Source: Curvularia clavata
Lineage: Eukaryota
Direction: 5' to 3'
NCBI GenBank assembly: GCA_023920165.1
Contig: CP089276.1
Coordinates: forward strand, 930,001-994,000
DNA: 64,000 bases
The notes below the pieces were generated by a model that saw nothing but the letters and a program-made list of their open reading frames with translations, made no database searches and was not told the DNA's origin. Shown here piece after piece: positions 995 through 40,915 of the stretch. The stretch's first letter is position 1. Each line of letters opens with the position of its first letter. A program made the position numbers and the translations under genes.

Positions 995-2772
995 ATGGAT
1001 CTGAGCTCTCTGATATCCGTCACCACAGTGACCAATCTTTCCTTGCTCTTCGTCGTTTACTGGGTTGGCTGGATCATCTACTGTCGCACATTTCACCCAC
1101 TTGCACATGTGCCGGGCCCACTATGGCCTGCAGTCTCTAACACATGGCTCAGGTTACCGTCTCTGTCTATGGCCGTCATCAGTTTGATGCTAACATGCGG
1201 CCAGTAAGCACTCTAATAGACTCCATATGAAGAGGCCAACTTCACGCGTAACCCGATTGACCCTATTTCTTACGCGAATACAGTGTACCACATGTACCTA
1301 GGCGATGTGGAAGTTGCGCAGGATAAGTTACATCAACAATACGGATCACTTATACGTGTTGCGCCAAACGAAGTAGTATCAAATGATGCGAGCGCAATCC
1401 CCCTCATCTACCGCACTCATAATCCTCTTAATAAGACCGAATGGTATGGTATTGTAGTATATGCCGTTGAAATGTTTCACGCTGACCTTGCACGTCTATT
1501 TCAGGTTCGCTAATTTCCGACCTCGTGGCATCAGCGAGCACGCAGACTTATTCACCGAGTTGGACGAATCGAAGCACAACAGGCGCCGCAGGGTTGTTCA
1601 ACCAGCCTATCAGATGGCCCGTGTTTTGAAGAATGAAAAAGCATATGACCGATGCACGATGCTCTTGATGAAGAAACTAGGCGAGCTTGCTGCAAAGGAG
1701 GAAGACGTTGATCTCGGCCACTGGATTGAACTTTACGCCCATGATATACTTGGCAGCGTTTTCTTCGGCCGCGCCTTTGGCTATCTAGAGAAGGGTGGAG
1801 ACATAGACGCATTCATCGAATCTGTGGCGACCGCTACACCGCTCATGCATGTCATTGCTGCCGCACCGAGCTACGTGCGTGGTCTGATCTTGATGGGAGC
1901 TATGTGCATTCCTGGAACTCTGAAAGGACTAAAAGCCATCGAGATGATGATCAACGAAGCAAAGCGACAGACAAAGCTGGGAGTCGAACGTTCCGCTGAG
2001 GACACCAAGTCCCGTCTGGATGTATGCTCCCAACTCTTACAAATCGTTAATGAGAAAGGCAGCCAAGTAGATTTCACCCCTAATGAAGTGACGCTCGAGT
2101 CCTGGACCGGACTACTAGCAGGCTCGGACTCGACTGCTTCAACTATGCGCACAATTCTCTACTTCCTCATGAAGAACCCCGATTGCATGGCCACGGCCGT
2201 CCAAGAAATCAAATCGCAAGAGCATCTCTTGAGCTCGCCAATGACGTACATGGAGTCTACGAAGCATTTGCCGTACGTCAACGCGTGCATTAAAGAGTCC
2301 TCACGCAACTTTTCCAGCGTCGGTATTAGTATGAGCCGTGTTGCGCCTGCTCAGGGAATCGTTTTGTCGAACCACCACATCCCTGCGGGCTACGCTGTTG
2401 GCATGAACCCGTACACTGTGCAGCGCGACCCGAAGCTTTTCGGCGAAGACTCAAGGGTATTTCGGCCTGAGCGCTGGCTTCAGAGTCAAGCGACGAACCT
2501 CGAGATGGAGAAGGGTATGATTACGTTTGGGGCGGGTACGCATACTTGCCTGGGCAAGAATGTAAGTGATCACTTCACTTGGCATGGACGTACCTTTTGC
2601 TAACGTCTCTGTGACAAAATCATAGATTGCACTGGTGGAAATTCATAAGCTTATTCCGGAGTTGTTGCGCCGTTTCGATATGCATTTGGTCCACGACAAG
2701 CCTTGGAGGACGCAGAATGCGGGATTCATCAAGCAGAAGGATATTATTGTGCGACTCACGCCGCGGGCTTGA
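995..2772 (+). CDS. Cytochrome P450 monooxygenase. Exons approx. 995-1151, 1284-1443, 1505-2561, 2626-2772; an alternative in-frame ATG lies at 980
   Basis: N-terminal TM anchor followed by HPLAHVPGP; I-helix AGSDST; K-helix ESSR (ExxR); PERW; heme motif FGAGTHTCLG. Introns 1444-1504 and 2562-2625 are GT-AG. The first intervening sequence (1152-1283) only gives an open frame if spliced as a nested twin intron (see findings). Confidence 0.93.
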
Positions 2773-2918: not shown

Positions 2919-4082
2919 CTAGGTACCGCCCATTATGTCCGCTGAATGTGTAGGCTTAACACTACCTCCACTCGAAGTTGCACCACTCGTAGCTGCGCCA
3001 CTGTCTCGCTCCAGAGGTGGAGTGTCCGCATAACAAGCCTTCATGAAGCTCTCAGGATACCTTCCACCGCTAACCTCTGCCTCTTCGCACGCTTTCCGAA
3101 TAGCCTGTTCCTCTTCCTTTGTCAATTGCACCTTTACACTTCCGATGTTCTCTTCCAGCCTCTCCGGCTTCGTAGTACCAGGGATAGGGAAGATATCTTC
3201 GCCTTGGGCCATGAGCCACGCGAGGGTCAGCTGGCTTGGCGTAACTCCCTTTGCCTTTGCAATCTCCTTGATGCGGTCAACGAGTTTAAGGTTCTTTGGA
3301 AAATTCTCCTTGCTGAAGCGAGGCGCAAAGCTACGGAAGTCGCCCTCTGGAAAGTCCTCTGGGCCTTTGAGCGCGCCTGTCAGCATGCCTCGATTCAAGG
3401 GCGAGTAAGCGACAACAGCAACGCCTAGCTCCCGGCATGTCTTGAGCAGGTCGATCTGCTCGCTCTCAATCTCAAGCGCAAACGGAGAGTACTCGACTTG
3501 CACGGCAGAAATGGGATGAACCTTGTGTGCCCTTCGCAGCGTGTCTGAGCTGATTTCCGATAAACCCAGGTACTTTACTTTTCCGAGATTGACAAGATCT
3601 GCCATGGCTTGAACGGTGAGCTCAATAGGTGTCTTTTGGTCCACGCGGTGGCAGTAGTAAAGGTCAATGTACGGGACACCCAGGCGCTTCAGCGATTTCT
3701 CGATAGCTTCCTTGACGTATTCTGGGGAAGAATTGATGGGGCCACCTTGAGCGTTGGCAGCAAATTTGGTCGCGAGGAAGATGTCTCCACGCTTGGATGG
3801 GTTGGCTTGGAACCATTTTCCGATTAGGTCTTCATTGTCGCCGTATCTGAACGCGTAATGTTAGGATATCGAGGCCTTATGAGAGCTGGATATCTTGCTG
3901 TATACTTACATATCGGCTGAGTCCCAGAACCGCTCACCTAGTTCGTAAGCGTGGTCAAGGAGAGCCAGGCGCTCGGCATCTGGCTTTGTTGGTCCATAAA
4001 AGGCGGACAATCCCATCAGACCGAACCCAAGACGGTTGACCTGGGGGCCGTTGCGGCCGAGTGGTGCAGTAGGAATAGACAT
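2919..4082 (-). CDS. Aldo-keto reductase (YakC/AKR13-like), one intron near 3848-3909
   Basis: LGFGLMGLS...WDSADIYGDNE, FLATKFA, DLYYCHRVD, YLGLSE, QVEYSPF, AYSPLNRG and PIPGTTK motifs. Confidence 0.95.
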
Positions 4083-39135: not shown

Positions 39136-40915
39136 TTAAGTGCTAAGGGGTTCGGGCTTCTCGCTCGACGGCGTCGCATCTGCAGAACTGTTGTCTTCGG
39201 CTTCGTTCCGCAGGTCATACGCGAGCTCAAAACATTCTTCCAGAAGTTGTATTACACGGCCTTGGCCATCCGGTATCTCGTCACCCACCATGAACTTGCC
39301 GTCTACCCGCATGTTGTCGATTGAGTTCAGCTGTCTCTGAATTAGCACGCAAATTGAAGTATTATCAAAGCACACAAACCTTCATGCTATACGGGTACAG
39401 TTCTCTTGGCGAAGACACACCCCCAAGCTTCTTGACTTCAAGAAGACATTTCCGAAGAGTTGTTAGCTGGTTGTAGATCGGCAACAGCGCTTCCGAAACC
39501 GGCTCCGATGTTAAGAGCAACTGGTAGATGAGTGCATAGCTCTTCCGCAGCAGGTACAGAAGGGTCTTGAGGGTGTTAGTGAACTGGTCCTGTCATTGTG
39601 TCTGGGCACTTACTCTCTGCTCATAGATCTCTGATGGCCGTCCTAGTGCATCGATAAAGTTTCCGTCCACTCGCGCTTCGTCTATGCGGTCAAGTTGACG
39701 CTGGAAATCCCACAGGTCTGTCTCACGGAGGGACCATGCCTGTGTCAGCGTGAGTTTTTCAAGCTTGTTTCGGATAGTGAGGAGCTTGTCATAAGTGTCC
39801 TTGAAAGCAGGTGCTATACGTCCTTGTCTATACGTGGGTCAGCCTGCAATCAACGAGGGTTAGCGAGGAACCCACTTTTCTTTGATCAGAGAAACCCAAA
39901 GCAAGTTTCGCCTCAACAGTGTACCAATAAGAGTTTCAGCTTCTGGTGCAGGCTCAGGATGCTCTTGGGTAAACTGCATCTTGCCAACCATTTCGGCCAG
40001 CTTTTCTTCCGTTGTACCAGTAGTCTCATATGCCTGAATGCCGTGCTCTTTGAGTTCTTCATTGAGCTTGTTCAGCTCCTGCTCGTACTCTTCAACCTCG
40101 GCATGGGGGAACTGATGCTGTGAGCAGAAGTATGCAGAGTCTCCAGGGACACTAACCTTTGACCGTGTGTTGCAGCCGCAAAGTGATCTCAGTATTGACA
40201 CCAACTTCTCCCATTTCGGTGTCAGCTCCGGGGTAAGCCCGGACAAGTTGAGTTTCAGATCCGCTAGAATCTCCTGGCAGACCTTGATACGGGCGTCAAG
40301 AAGAGTGAGAAGATGGGGACTGTACTTATCCCGGCCGCGTTCAACATAGTCCTGGCAGTCCTGGAGATTCTTGTCGAGTGCTTCGAGGTCCTTTTGCGAA
40401 TAAAACGTAGCTTCCTTGATATGATCCAGTAGGCGCTAAGTGAGGTTAGAGATTGGAACACTATAGTCAAATTATTCTTGGCCTACTTTGATAGTGGAGA
40501 CATATGAGTATCTATGGGGTTGTCAGTATATGTACGTGCAGCGTGGATGGACACATACACTGCTGGTGGCTCATGGTTCTTTCCGACAGTCAGATATGCA
40601 AGTGAGATGAGCTGGAAACAATCATCAAGCATATAGTCCACTACAGAACAAAGTTAGTAAAATTGCAACTACATGCGGCAAGTGGCAACGTGACATGCCT
40701 TTGTTCTGCTCAAGGCGCTTGGTTTCGCGTATCTCGTTCAGAACTATGACCTGCTCGATGACCTGATCGTACAGCTTCAAGACATCTTGGCTTTTGACGT
40801 ATGTCGATCGGTCACGCTTTAGCAACTCGAGCTCCGTCCGGATGGACTGCAGTCTGTCGAGAATGGGTTGCTCTTTGGGATCGAGCGGGATCCGAGGCAA
40901 TGGAGAGTCGGTCAT
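39136..40915 (-). CDS. YPL260W/Cub1 (UPF0662)-like conserved fungal protein, multi-exon; first intron is GC-AG
   Basis: LLKRDRSTYVKSQDV, DDCFQLISLAYLTVG, AWSLRETDLWDFQRQL and SEPVSEALLPIYNQLTTLRKCLLEVKKLGGVSSPRELYPYSMK motifs, recognised from memory of this family. Confidence 0.82.

What the first reader, a model, noticed from the sequence alone, without database searches (positions are those of the whole stretch)
1152..1283. Nested spliceosomal twin intron (stwintron, [D1,2] type) needed to keep the P450 in frame
Seen: exon 1 ends ...TGG CTC A(1151), then G(1152), then an inner intron GTTACC...GCTAAC...CCAG (1153-1204, 52 nt), then TAAGCA...ATTGAC...TACAG (1205-1283). Removing the inner intron joins G+TAAGCA into a canonical GTAAGC donor. 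Removing that 80-nt outer intron joins A+TG to give W-L-M-Y-H-M-Y-L-G-D, in frame with the rest of the P450. The one-step alternatives I checked (1153-1283, 1204-1283, or 1153-1204 alone) all shift the frame or reach a stop. Established: stwintrons, where an internal U2 intron interrupts the donor of an external one, are described in ascomycetes and are usually mis-annotated. Caveat: GTTACC is a weak donor.
Basis: partly seen in the sequence, partly recalled or inferred. Interest (0 to 1): 0.75.

Follow-up and report, generated by a model that had tools for sequence, protein, structure and literature searches.

The report
Verified nested twin intron in P450
The first intron of a fungal cytochrome P450 gene is really one intron nested inside the start signal of another, so it must be cut out in two steps; this is a known oddity of filamentous fungi, and it shows that the public gene model is wrong here.

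Summary
The observation and the interpretation both hold. Window 1152-1283 (132 nt, GG..AG) is a [D1,2] spliceosomal twin intron in intron 1 of a cytochrome P450 gene. The gene is 100% identical over exon 3 to Curvularia clavata yc1106_04040.

RNA-derived contigs of public runs laid on 900-2850 show both predicted molecules. The mature junction 1151|1284 appears in 2 of 4 runs (X15, X2). The intermediate lacking only 1153-1204 (GT..AG, 52 nt) appears in 2 of 4 runs (X1, X2). Introns 2 and 3 are spliced in all four runs, and no indel occurs near 1152.

The mature junction restores the family spacing: 34 residues between the PGP and PNE motifs, as in 16 of 20 homologues that have both. The public model has 61. 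It uses a 51-nt intron (1182-1232) that adds 27 residues and is seen in 0 of 4 runs.

All motifs of the published [D1,2] search model fit except the inner donor GTTACC, which has C at +5. I found no internal symmetry and no second copy in the window.

This is a new member of a known kind. Whether orthologues share it could not be tested on DNA.

The parts
995..1151 (+). Exon 1 of the P450 gene. ATG at 995. Ends with the first base (A) of codon 53.
   Evidence: Sequence. The N-terminus equals P0001. RNA contigs start at 969-983 and end or join at 1151.
1152..1283 (+). Whole [D1,2] stwintron: 132 nt, phase 1, apparent GG..AG.
   Evidence: Joint 1151|1284 'skips 132, GG..AG, both=0' in X15 (3248-nt contig) and X2 (60-nt contig).
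1152..1152 (+). G1 of the split donor of the external intron. It also serves as the -1 G in front of the internal donor.
   Evidence: Sequence. It is kept in the intermediate and removed in the mature form.
1153..1204 (+). Internal intron, 52 nt, GT..AG.
   Evidence: Joint 'skips 52, GT..AG (cut +3)' in X1 (2818-nt contig, depth 122) and X2 (140-nt contig, depth 58).
1153..1158 (+). Internal donor GTTACC. It is non-canonical at +5 (C) and +6 (C).
   Evidence: Sequence. It is not among the 24 GTNNGN donors of the published model.
1189..1194 (+). Internal branch-point element GCTAAC, 7 nt before the CAG acceptor.
   Evidence: Sequence. It fits DYTRAY of the published model.
1202..1204 (+). Internal acceptor CAG.
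   Evidence: Sequence. It is the end of the 52-nt skip.
1205..1283 (+). Rest of the external intron (79 nt, or 80 nt with G1152). Retained in the intermediate.
   Evidence: The X1 contig and X2 record 5 run through it after the 52-nt skip. The X9 contig covers 1246-1442.
1205..1209 (+). TAAGC. With G1152 it forms the external donor GTAAGC once the internal intron is removed.
   Evidence: Sequence. GTAAGC is in the published donor list.
1256..1261 (+). Likely external branch-point element ATTGAC, 19 nt before the CAG acceptor.
   Evidence: Motif fit only. The branch site itself was not shown.
1281..1283 (+). External acceptor CAG.
   Evidence: End of the 132-nt skip.
1284..1443 (+). Exon 2. It starts with TG, which completes the Met codon.
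1444..1504 (+). Intron 2, 61 nt, GTATGG..CAG.
   Evidence: Joint 'skips 61, GT..AG (cut +1)' in 4 of 4 runs.
1505..2561 (+). Exon 3, the main P450 body including the heme loop FGAGTHTCLG.
   Evidence: PF00067, E 4.5e-49. Covered by contigs.
2562..2625 (+). Intron 3, 64 nt, GTAAGT..TAG.
   Evidence: Joint 2561|2626 'skips 64, GT..AG' in 4 of 4 runs.
2626..2772 (+). Exon 4 with stop TGA at 2770-2772.
   Evidence: The corrected CDS is 1521 nt, 506 aa.

Best explanation
Window 1152-1283 is a donor-disrupted spliceosomal twin intron of type [D1,2] in a Curvularia clavata cytochrome P450 gene.

Step 1: an ordinary U2 splicing reaction removes the 52-nt internal intron 1153-1204. Its donor is GTTACC, preceded by CAG. 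Its branch element is GCTAAC and its acceptor is CAG.

This joins G1152 to TAAGC and creates the donor GTAAGC, which did not exist before.

Step 2: a second U2 reaction removes the resulting 80-nt external intron, which has branch element ATTGAC and acceptor CAG at 1283. This fuses CTC A to TG TAC. The fusion makes a Met codon and a 506-residue P450 with the family's normal N-terminal spacing.

Shown here: the mature junction, the intermediate, and that the genomic GG is real.

Inferred: the intermediate is the precursor of the mature form (order of events); the branch points; and that the second step is slow. The intermediate carries a premature stop, yet it is the only assembled form in one run and about half of the depth in another.
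For: contigs of 4 runs laid on 900-2850:
- X15: one 3248-nt contig joins 1151|1284 (GG..AG, both=0) and has introns 2 and 3 removed.
- X2: a 60-nt contig carries the same joint (depth 47.3). A 140-nt contig lacks only 52 nt, which is GT..AG when placed at 1153-1204 (depth 58.4). The two depths add up to about that of the shared upstream contig (104.8).
- X1: one 2818-nt contig (depth 122.3) has the 52 nt removed, keeps 1205-1283, and has introns 2 and 3 removed.
- No insertions or deletions are listed. X9 covers 982-1226 without any difference.

homologues with complete N-termini (P0017, P0025, P0036, P0049, P0050, P0054, P0055) read W-x-M-Y/M/N at this site. The Met sits where the A|TG fusion makes one.

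PGP-to-PNE spacing is 34 in 16 of the 20 homologues that have both motifs (120 were scanned). The corrected model also gives 34. The public model gives 61 and the 1182-1283 alternative gives 44.

every motif and spacing of the published [D1,2] search model A is met except +5 of the inner donor.

(passages of PMC9024468): the field accepts exactly this pair of RNA species, exon fusion plus 'splinter', as validation. They also report that 7 nt between the internal branch element and the acceptor is the commonest value there.
Against: - The internal donor GTTACC lacks the G at +5 that the published models treat as obligatory.
- All four runs are assembled contigs, not raw reads. Rare forms are dropped and depths are one figure per contig, so the ratios are rough.
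- Three of the four runs are labelled RNA only by guess. Their RNA origin is inferred from the removed introns 2 and 3.
- A precursor-product relation between the intermediate and the mature form was not shown.
- No orthologous genomic DNA could be obtained, so there is no comparative support for the nested layout.
- X9 shows the region 982-1226 unspliced, and separately 1246-1442 retained. This could be pre-mRNA or DNA carry-over.
Confidence: 0.93

Rival explanations
1. The 132 nt are removed in a single non-canonical GG-AG splicing event. The 52-nt removal is then an unrelated, dead-end alternative splice.
For: The mature joint has GG..AG ends. The order of the two events was not shown. In X1 the 52-nt-deleted form is the only one assembled, which would fit a dead end.
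Against: Established knowledge (recalled): U at +2 of the donor is essentially required by the U2-type spliceosome. The 52-nt removal creates a textbook GTAAGC exactly one base upstream of its own junction, with a branch element and CAG at the right place. That coincidence is what defines a [D1,2] stwintron. Both forms coexist in X2.
Confidence: 0.03
2. The public gene model is right. A single 51-nt intron 1182-1232 (GTTTGA..AAG) is removed, giving a 533-residue protein with 27 extra residues. A variant of this rival is the 102-nt intron 1182-1283, which gives 10 extra residues.
For: Both are canonical GT-AG and in frame with no stop. GTTTGA has G at +5, unlike GTTACC. P0001 in the public databases is built this way.
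Against: 0 of 4 runs show a joint at 1181|1233 or 1181|1284 (table 5 lists only four joints). Contigs can drop rare forms, so this is not proof of absence. The insert breaks the 34-residue spacing kept by 16 of 20 homologues.
Confidence: 0.02
3. Assembly error or pseudogene. A 1-nt indel near 1152 or 1284 hides an ordinary intron, or the gene is dead and the frame logic is meaningless.
For: A single G in place of GG at 1152-1153 would give one GT-AG intron in frame. The window comes from a long contig (4.7 Mb), so long-read errors are conceivable.
Against: Independent RNA contigs reproduce the window letter for letter across 1122-1226. X9 covers 982-1226 with 0 differences and 0 gaps, and no indel is listed for any run. 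The gene is transcribed, fully spliced in X15, and gives an open 506-codon frame.
Confidence: 0.01

Closest known systems
Uniquely occurring [D1,2] stwintrons of Pezizomycotina. Examples: Helminthosporium solani alternative oxidase, Aspergillus nidulans lipS, and 81 in Hypoxylon sp. CO27-5. Sources: PMC5639578 Background read; PMC9024468 section 2.1 and passages read.
   Same: - It starts with GG.
- An internal U2 intron splits the external donor between nt 1 and 2.
- The external donor (GTAAGC) exists only after step 1.
- The branch and acceptor motifs and all spacings fit search model A.
- It is phase 1, the commonest phase there (passage).
- There are 7 nt between the internal branch element and the acceptor.
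- It is validated by exon-fusion RNA plus the 'splinter' intermediate.
   Different: - The internal donor GTTACC has C at +5, so none of the published motif models would find it (0 hits with model A).
- The host is a Pleosporales P450. None of the stwintron papers I searched mentions P450 or Curvularia (on three papers; on the whole library).
- The external branch element lies 19 nt from the acceptor, near the model's upper limit. In 50 of 81 Hypoxylon cases the distance is 6 nt (passage).
Repeated 'sister' [D1,2] stwintrons of Hypoxylaceae and Xylariaceae. Sources: PMC8469720 and PMC12403724, abstracts seen in the listing; PMC9024468 passages.
   Same: The same [D1,2] architecture. Like them, it sits at an intron position not used by wider relatives: 48 of 59 metagenome loci with an N-terminal match are contiguous across the site and none shows an intron there.
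   Different: It has no terminal inverted repeats or internal symmetry: only a 9-nt, 89% pair and a fold z-score of -0.97. There is no second copy in the 64-kb window. The whole genome could not be searched.
Alternatively spliced [D1,2]/[A2,3] stwintrons, as in H. solani AOX and an efflux-pump gene. Source: PMC5639578 Background, read.
   Same: It starts with GG.
   Different: The alternative [A2,3] route needs G as the first base of the downstream exon. Here that base is T (1284), so only the [D1,2] route can give the observed mRNA.
Recursive (ratchet-point) splicing of long animal introns. This is recalled. PMC5587772, in an Introduction passage I read, states that stwintrons are distinct from it.
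   Same: The intron is removed stepwise, and a 5' splice site is regenerated by the first ligation.
   Different: In recursive splicing no splice-site element of one unit is interrupted by the other. Here the external donor itself is split, and the regenerated site lies 1 nt upstream of the first one. The scale here is 132 nt, not tens of kilobases.
Pisatin-demethylase-like fungal cytochrome P450s. These are the names the sources give to the homologues.
   Same: PF00067. Identity over exon 3 to Pleosporales proteins named pisatin demethylase is 47-64%. It has an N-terminal anchor, a PGP hinge and a Cys heme loop.
   Different: No function was tested. The heme loop has His where 90% or more of 21 aligned relatives have Arg. 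There is no biosynthetic core gene among the neighbours scanned.

Membership tests
[D1,2] spliceosomal twin intron (stwintron) | The intervening sequence begins with two successive G, followed by T (G|GT). | tested here: met
   GGT at 1152-1154. The definition is from PMC5639578 Background.
[D1,2] spliceosomal twin intron (stwintron) | The internal unit is a canonical U2 intron: donor GTNNGN, branch DYTRAY, acceptor HAG, at least 42 nt. | tested here: inconclusive
   The branch element GCTAAC, acceptor CAG, 52-nt length and spacings of 30 and 7 nt all fit. The donor GTTACC fails the +5 G rule of the published model. Even so, it is used in RNA.
[D1,2] spliceosomal twin intron (stwintron) | Removing the internal intron creates a canonical donor for the external intron, split between nt 1 and 2. 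| tested here: met
   G1152 plus TAAGC (1205-1209) gives GTAAGC, which is in the published list. The joined form is present in the X1 and X2 contigs.
[D1,2] spliceosomal twin intron (stwintron) | The external intron has its own branch element and acceptor. | tested here: met
   ATTGAC at 1256-1261, then 19 nt, then CAG at 1281-1283, within the model's ranges. Use of the acceptor is shown by the 1151|1284 joint. Use of the branch site was not shown.
[D1,2] spliceosomal twin intron (stwintron) | The mature mRNA lacks the whole sequence and keeps the reading frame. | tested here: met
   A 132-nt skip in X15 and X2. The result is a 1521-nt open CDS with the family spacing restored.
[D1,2] spliceosomal twin intron (stwintron) | A splicing intermediate ('splinter') exists that lacks only the internal intron. 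| tested here: met
   A 52-nt GT..AG skip with 1205-1283 retained, in X1 and X2. The criterion is from PMC9024468 sections 2.2 and 3.2.
[D1,2] spliceosomal twin intron (stwintron) | The two excisions are consecutive: the intermediate is the precursor of the mRNA. | not testable with these tools
   This needs splice-site mutants, kinetics or lariat sequencing.
Sister (repeated, internally symmetrical) stwintrons of Hypoxylaceae/Xylariaceae | Terminal inverted repeats or internal symmetry, and sequence-similar copies elsewhere in the genome. | tested here: not met
   There is only a 9-nt, 89% inverted pair, and the fold z-score is -0.97. No other copy was found in the window. A genome-wide search was not possible.
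[D1,2]/[A2,3] alternatively spliced stwintron | [quoted passage not shown] | tested here: not met
   T at 1284. The rule is from PMC5639578.
Cytochrome P450 (PF00067) | Match to the Pfam profile above its cut-off, and a Cys heme-binding loop. | tested here: met
   167.9 bits against a cut-off of 22.8. FGAGTHTCLG is present in exon 3. The motif form is recalled.

The most novel reading that the evidence does not exclude
The nested intron may not be a one-species curiosity. It may be shared by the orthologues of Pleosporaceae and neighbouring families.

That would explain why only 2 of the 15 NCBI-sourced models among the 36 best homologues carry the consensus junction. It would also explain why the read-through models of Alternaria, Pyrenophora and Curvularia all show T-V-Y where relatives have M-Y, which is the footprint of ..ACAG|TG TAC.

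In addition, its second splicing step may be rate-limiting. The stop-containing intermediate would then accumulate and gate production of the enzyme. The intermediate is the only assembled form in X1, about half in X2 and absent in X15.

It would also show that inner donors without G at +5 work, so published genome-wide stwintron counts, which require G5, would be underestimates.
Probability: 0.25. Interest if true: 0.55.

Novelty: new member of a known kind. Interest (0 to 1): 0.38.

Why it matters
The finding corrects a public gene model. The true product has 506 residues, not 533, and lacks a 27-residue insert in the membrane-proximal N-terminus.

It adds an RNA-supported [D1,2] stwintron in a Dothideomycete P450. 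In the twelve stwintron papers of the searched library, the only Pleosporales example I saw mentioned is the H. solani alternative oxidase.

Its working inner donor lacks the G at +5 that the published search models require. Motif-based censuses therefore miss cases like this one.

The stop-containing intermediate is abundant in two studies. This hints that two-step splicing can hold back expression, which can be tested directly with raw reads or RT-PCR.

Tried and rejected
- **Whole genome.** None is held for this window, so no genome-wide search for further copies or for paralogues was possible.
- **Orthologous DNA.** 59 had an N-terminal match. 48 of these are contiguous across the site, and the other 11 do not span it or have gaps or stops nearby. 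None has an intron at this site. So there is no orthologue with which to test conservation of the GGT..AGT..AG layout.
- **Protein searches with exon 1.** The search with the exon-1 reading frame through the inner intron (near lengths) found nothing. The search with exon 1 alone (longer lengths) found only P0001.
- **Sister-stwintron features.** These were looked for and not found.
- **Second pattern hit.** The relaxed pattern also hit 39828-39925 on the minus strand. Reading it shows a plain 48-nt GTGGGT..TAG intron (39875-39828) that keeps the frame. I treat this hit as chance.
- **Alternative joints.** The public-model joint (1181|1233) and the 1181|1284 joint were not seen in any of the 4 runs. 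Contigs drop rare forms, so this is weak negative evidence.
- **X9 coverage.** X9 has no cover over about 1670-1940. I draw no conclusion from this.
- **Earlier findings of this scan.** Two look-ups returned nothing.

Full report
**What is in the sequence**

One search confirms every letter and coordinate of the finding.
- The P450 gene starts at ATG 995.
- Exon 1 runs to A1151, the first base of codon 53.
- G1152 follows, then GTTACC (1153-1158), GCTAAC (1189-1194) and CAG (1202-1204).
- Next come TAAGCA (1205-1210), ATTGAC (1256-1261) and CAG (1281-1283).
- Exon 2 begins TG TAC at 1284.

Exons 1 and 2 lie in the same genomic frame, so whatever is removed must be a multiple of three. The stretch 1152-1283 is 132 nt.

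I enumerated all GT/GC donors with AG acceptors that leave an open frame from 995 to 1443.
- 1182-1283 (GTTTGA..CAG, 102 nt, 10 extra residues);
- 1182-1232 (51 nt, 27 extra residues);
- GC-AG pairs from 1197 or 1200 to 1283.

Frame alone therefore did not prove a nested intron.

**Whose gene it is, and what the public model says**

The translation of exon 3 is 100% identical to a 533-residue protein named 'uncharacterized protein yc1106_04040 [Curvularia clavata]' (P0001). The next hits are Pleosporales P450s, many named pisatin demethylase by their sources, at 47-64% identity.

The sequence of P0001 equals the 1182-1232 model. The public annotation therefore uses the 51-nt intron and carries a 27-residue insert.

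Pfam confirms a P450 (PF00067, 167.9 bits).

**Homology at the junction**

Homologues with a complete N-terminus read W-x-M at this site:
- W-x-M-Y in P0017, P0025, P0036, P0050 and P0054;
- W-L-M-N in P0049 and W-L-M-M in P0055.

The nested-intron model gives W-L-M-Y. Its Met codon is made by the A|TG fusion.

I measured the spacing between the PGP hinge and the R-x-x-P-N-E motif. Of 120 listed proteins, 20 have both motifs.
- 16 of these 20 have 34 residues.
- The corrected model has 34.
- The public model has 61.
- The 1182-1283 alternative has 44.
- The three other deviants (P0022 with 23, P0028 with 15, P0071 with 29) are models with other junctions.

**RNA evidence, the decisive step**

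A search for public runs holding 960-2800 listed 22 runs. I laid four of them, from four studies, on 900-2850. All four are assembled contigs, not raw reads.
- In all four, intron 2 (1444-1504, 61 nt) and intron 3 (2562-2625, 64 nt) are removed with GT..AG ends. The contigs therefore derive from RNA, although three of the runs are labelled RNA only by guess.
- X15: one 3248-nt contig joins 1151 to 1284 ('skips 132, GG..AG', no positional ambiguity).
- X2: a 60-nt contig carries the same joint (depth 47.3). A 140-nt contig lacks 52 nt (depth 58.4).
- The tool places the 52-nt skip at 1149|1202 with 3 letters of ambiguity and notes GT..AG at +3. That placement is removal of exactly 1153-1204.
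- In X2 the two depths sum to about that of the shared upstream contig (104.8). With the caution the tool attaches to contig depths, this suggests roughly equal amounts of the two forms.
- X1: the only contig (2818 nt, depth 122.3) has the 52 nt removed, 1205-1283 retained, and introns 2 and 3 removed.
- X9 (a metatranscriptome): one low-depth contig covers 982-1226 unspliced. Another covers 1246-1442 joined to 1504.
- No joint corresponding to the public model (1181|1233) or to 1182-1283 is listed in any run.
- No insertion or deletion is listed. The X9 contig reproduces 982-1226 without a single difference, so the GG at 1152-1153 is not an assembly error.
- The only difference from the window is C>T at 1275 in X1 and X2, inside the external intron.

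They are also the same two that the stwintron literature uses for validation: exon fusion plus the 'splinter' intermediate (PMC9024468, sections 2.2 and 3.2, passages).

**How it works**

Shown:
- The 52-nt piece can be removed alone, with GT..AG ends.
- Its removal places G1152 next to TAAGC, giving GTAAGC.
- The finished mRNA lacks all 132 nt.

Inferred:
- The intermediate is the precursor of the mRNA.
- The branch sites are the A of GCTAAC, which lies 7 nt before its CAG, and the A of ATTGAC, which lies 19 nt before its CAG.

The weak internal donor GTTACC is preceded by CAG. G1152 therefore serves first as the -1 G of the internal donor and then as +1 of the external donor. By my recollection of the U1 5' end, CAG|GT gives five contiguous pairs, which may compensate for C at +5 and +6.

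No other two-step route gives the observed mRNA.
- The only other AGT inside the sequence (1181-1183) would make a 30-nt internal intron.
- The alternative [A2,3] route described for some [D1,2] stwintrons needs G as the first exon base (PMC5639578 Background). Here that base is T.

The intermediate translates into a stop after 84 codons. Its prominence in X1 and X2 therefore means that a large share of the steady-state transcripts there cannot make the enzyme. Whether that is regulation or just a slow second step is open.

**Comparison with the known kind**

PMC9024468 section 2.1 (read in full) prints the [D1,2] search model:
- G, then one of 24 GTNNGN donors;
- 25-80 nt, then DYTRAY;
- 4-20 nt, then HAG followed by T and the last four bases (positions 3-6) of one of the 24 donors;
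- 25-110 nt, then DYTRAY;
- 4-20 nt, then HAG.

Run on both strands of the window, the model finds nothing. With only the inner donor relaxed to GTNNNN it finds 1152-1283 and one other place, 39828-39925 on the minus strand. On reading, a plain 48-nt intron explains that second hit.

The element therefore meets every published criterion except G at +5 of the inner donor. The same paper mentions one inner donor that is non-canonical at +5, but in a pseudogenised gene.

Unlike the repeated 'sister' stwintrons of Hypoxylaceae, this one has:
- no internal symmetry (only a 9-nt, 89% inverted pair);
- no unusual fold (z = -0.97);
- no second copy in the window.

**Distribution**

No genome is held for this window, and the collections on hand hold no fungal reference genomes.

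The single metagenome scan gave only distant relatives, at 24-51% identity.
- 59 loci have an N-terminal match.
- 48 of these are contiguous across the W-x|M site.
- None has an intron there.

The intron position is therefore not a family-wide one.

Indirect hints suggest that closer orthologues share an awkward intron at this site. Among the 36 best hits:
- Only 3 (P0017, P0025, P0036) carry the consensus junction.
- 4 have an exon 1 joined in some other way (P0001, P0013, P0022, P0028).
- 29 lack exon 1 altogether.
- Of the 15 that come from NCBI annotations, 2 carry the consensus junction.

The read-through models of Alternaria (P0006), Pyrenophora (P0014) and Curvularia (P0001) all show T-V-Y where relatives have M-Y. 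That is what ..ACAG|TG TAC would give. This fits a conserved phase-1 acceptor. It does not show that the donor side is nested.

**Literature**

'stwintron' occurs in 12 papers of the library.
- Term searches inside PMC5639578, PMC9024468 and PMC12403724 found no mention of P450 or Curvularia.
- In a search for the phrase 'spliceosomal twin intron' with Pleosporales genera or P450, none of the 15 top-ranked papers of 7,021 holding two or more of the terms contained that phrase.
- The Dothideomycete cases I saw are the H. solani alternative oxidase [D1,2] and the Botryosphaeriales bioDA [D2,3].
- The founding 2013 and 2015 papers were seen only as references. I did not open the supplementary tables of the Hypoxylon papers, so other G5-less donors may be listed there.

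**Verdict**

The finding is real and was correctly interpreted. It is a new, RNA-supported member of a known kind. It has two points of modest interest beyond the corrected annotation: a working inner donor without G5, and an abundant stop-containing intermediate.

Noticed in passing
window 1182-1232 (public model of yc1106_04040, P0001): The public protein (533 aa) is built with a 51-nt GTTTGA..AAG intron and carries a 27-residue insert absent from homologues. No RNA contig supports that junction. The RNA-supported product is 506 aa.
   Followed up: yes
window 1275: C>T difference inside the external intron in the contigs of X1 and X2, which are both organism A. X9 has C at this position. It does not touch the branch or acceptor motifs.
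   Followed up: partly
window 1205-1283 in runs X1, X2, X15: The share of the stop-containing intermediate differs between studies. It is the only assembled form in X1, roughly half in X2 and absent in X15. This may mean a slow or condition-dependent second splicing step.
   Followed up: partly
window 39828-39925 (minus strand): The relaxed [D1,2] pattern also matches here, inside a DUF2408 gene. Reading the region shows a plain 48-nt intron (39875-39828, GTGGGT..TAG) that keeps the frame. This is probably a chance match.
   Followed up: partly
window about 2541-2543 (His in FGAGTHTCLG, residue 346 of the exon-3 translation): The heme-binding loop has His where 90% or more of 21 aligned relatives have Arg.
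   Followed up: no
P0003, P0004, P0006, P0010, P0013, P0014, P0015, P0022, P0028 and others: Most public models of the closest homologues are truncated at the exon 1/exon 2 junction or joined oddly there. Three read-through models show T-V-Y where relatives have M-Y.
   Followed up: partly
window 2850 to about 4600: The RNA contigs of X1, X2 and X15 run 1.1-1.8 kb beyond 2850, over the convergent aldo/keto reductase gene (ORF 2922-3860, minus strand). This suggests overlapping or closely abutting 3' ends. The contigs are unstranded, so this does not show a single transcript.
   Followed up: no
window 1-64000: The neighbours scanned by Pfam include an aldo/keto reductase, a flavoprotein, an S41-like peptidase, a protein kinase, a DEP/RGS protein, a DENN protein, TRAPPC13, a pyridine-nucleotide disulphide oxidoreductase, a fungal transcription factor and a dehydroquinase. 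No polyketide, peptide or terpene synthase was seen next to the P450.
   Followed up: partly
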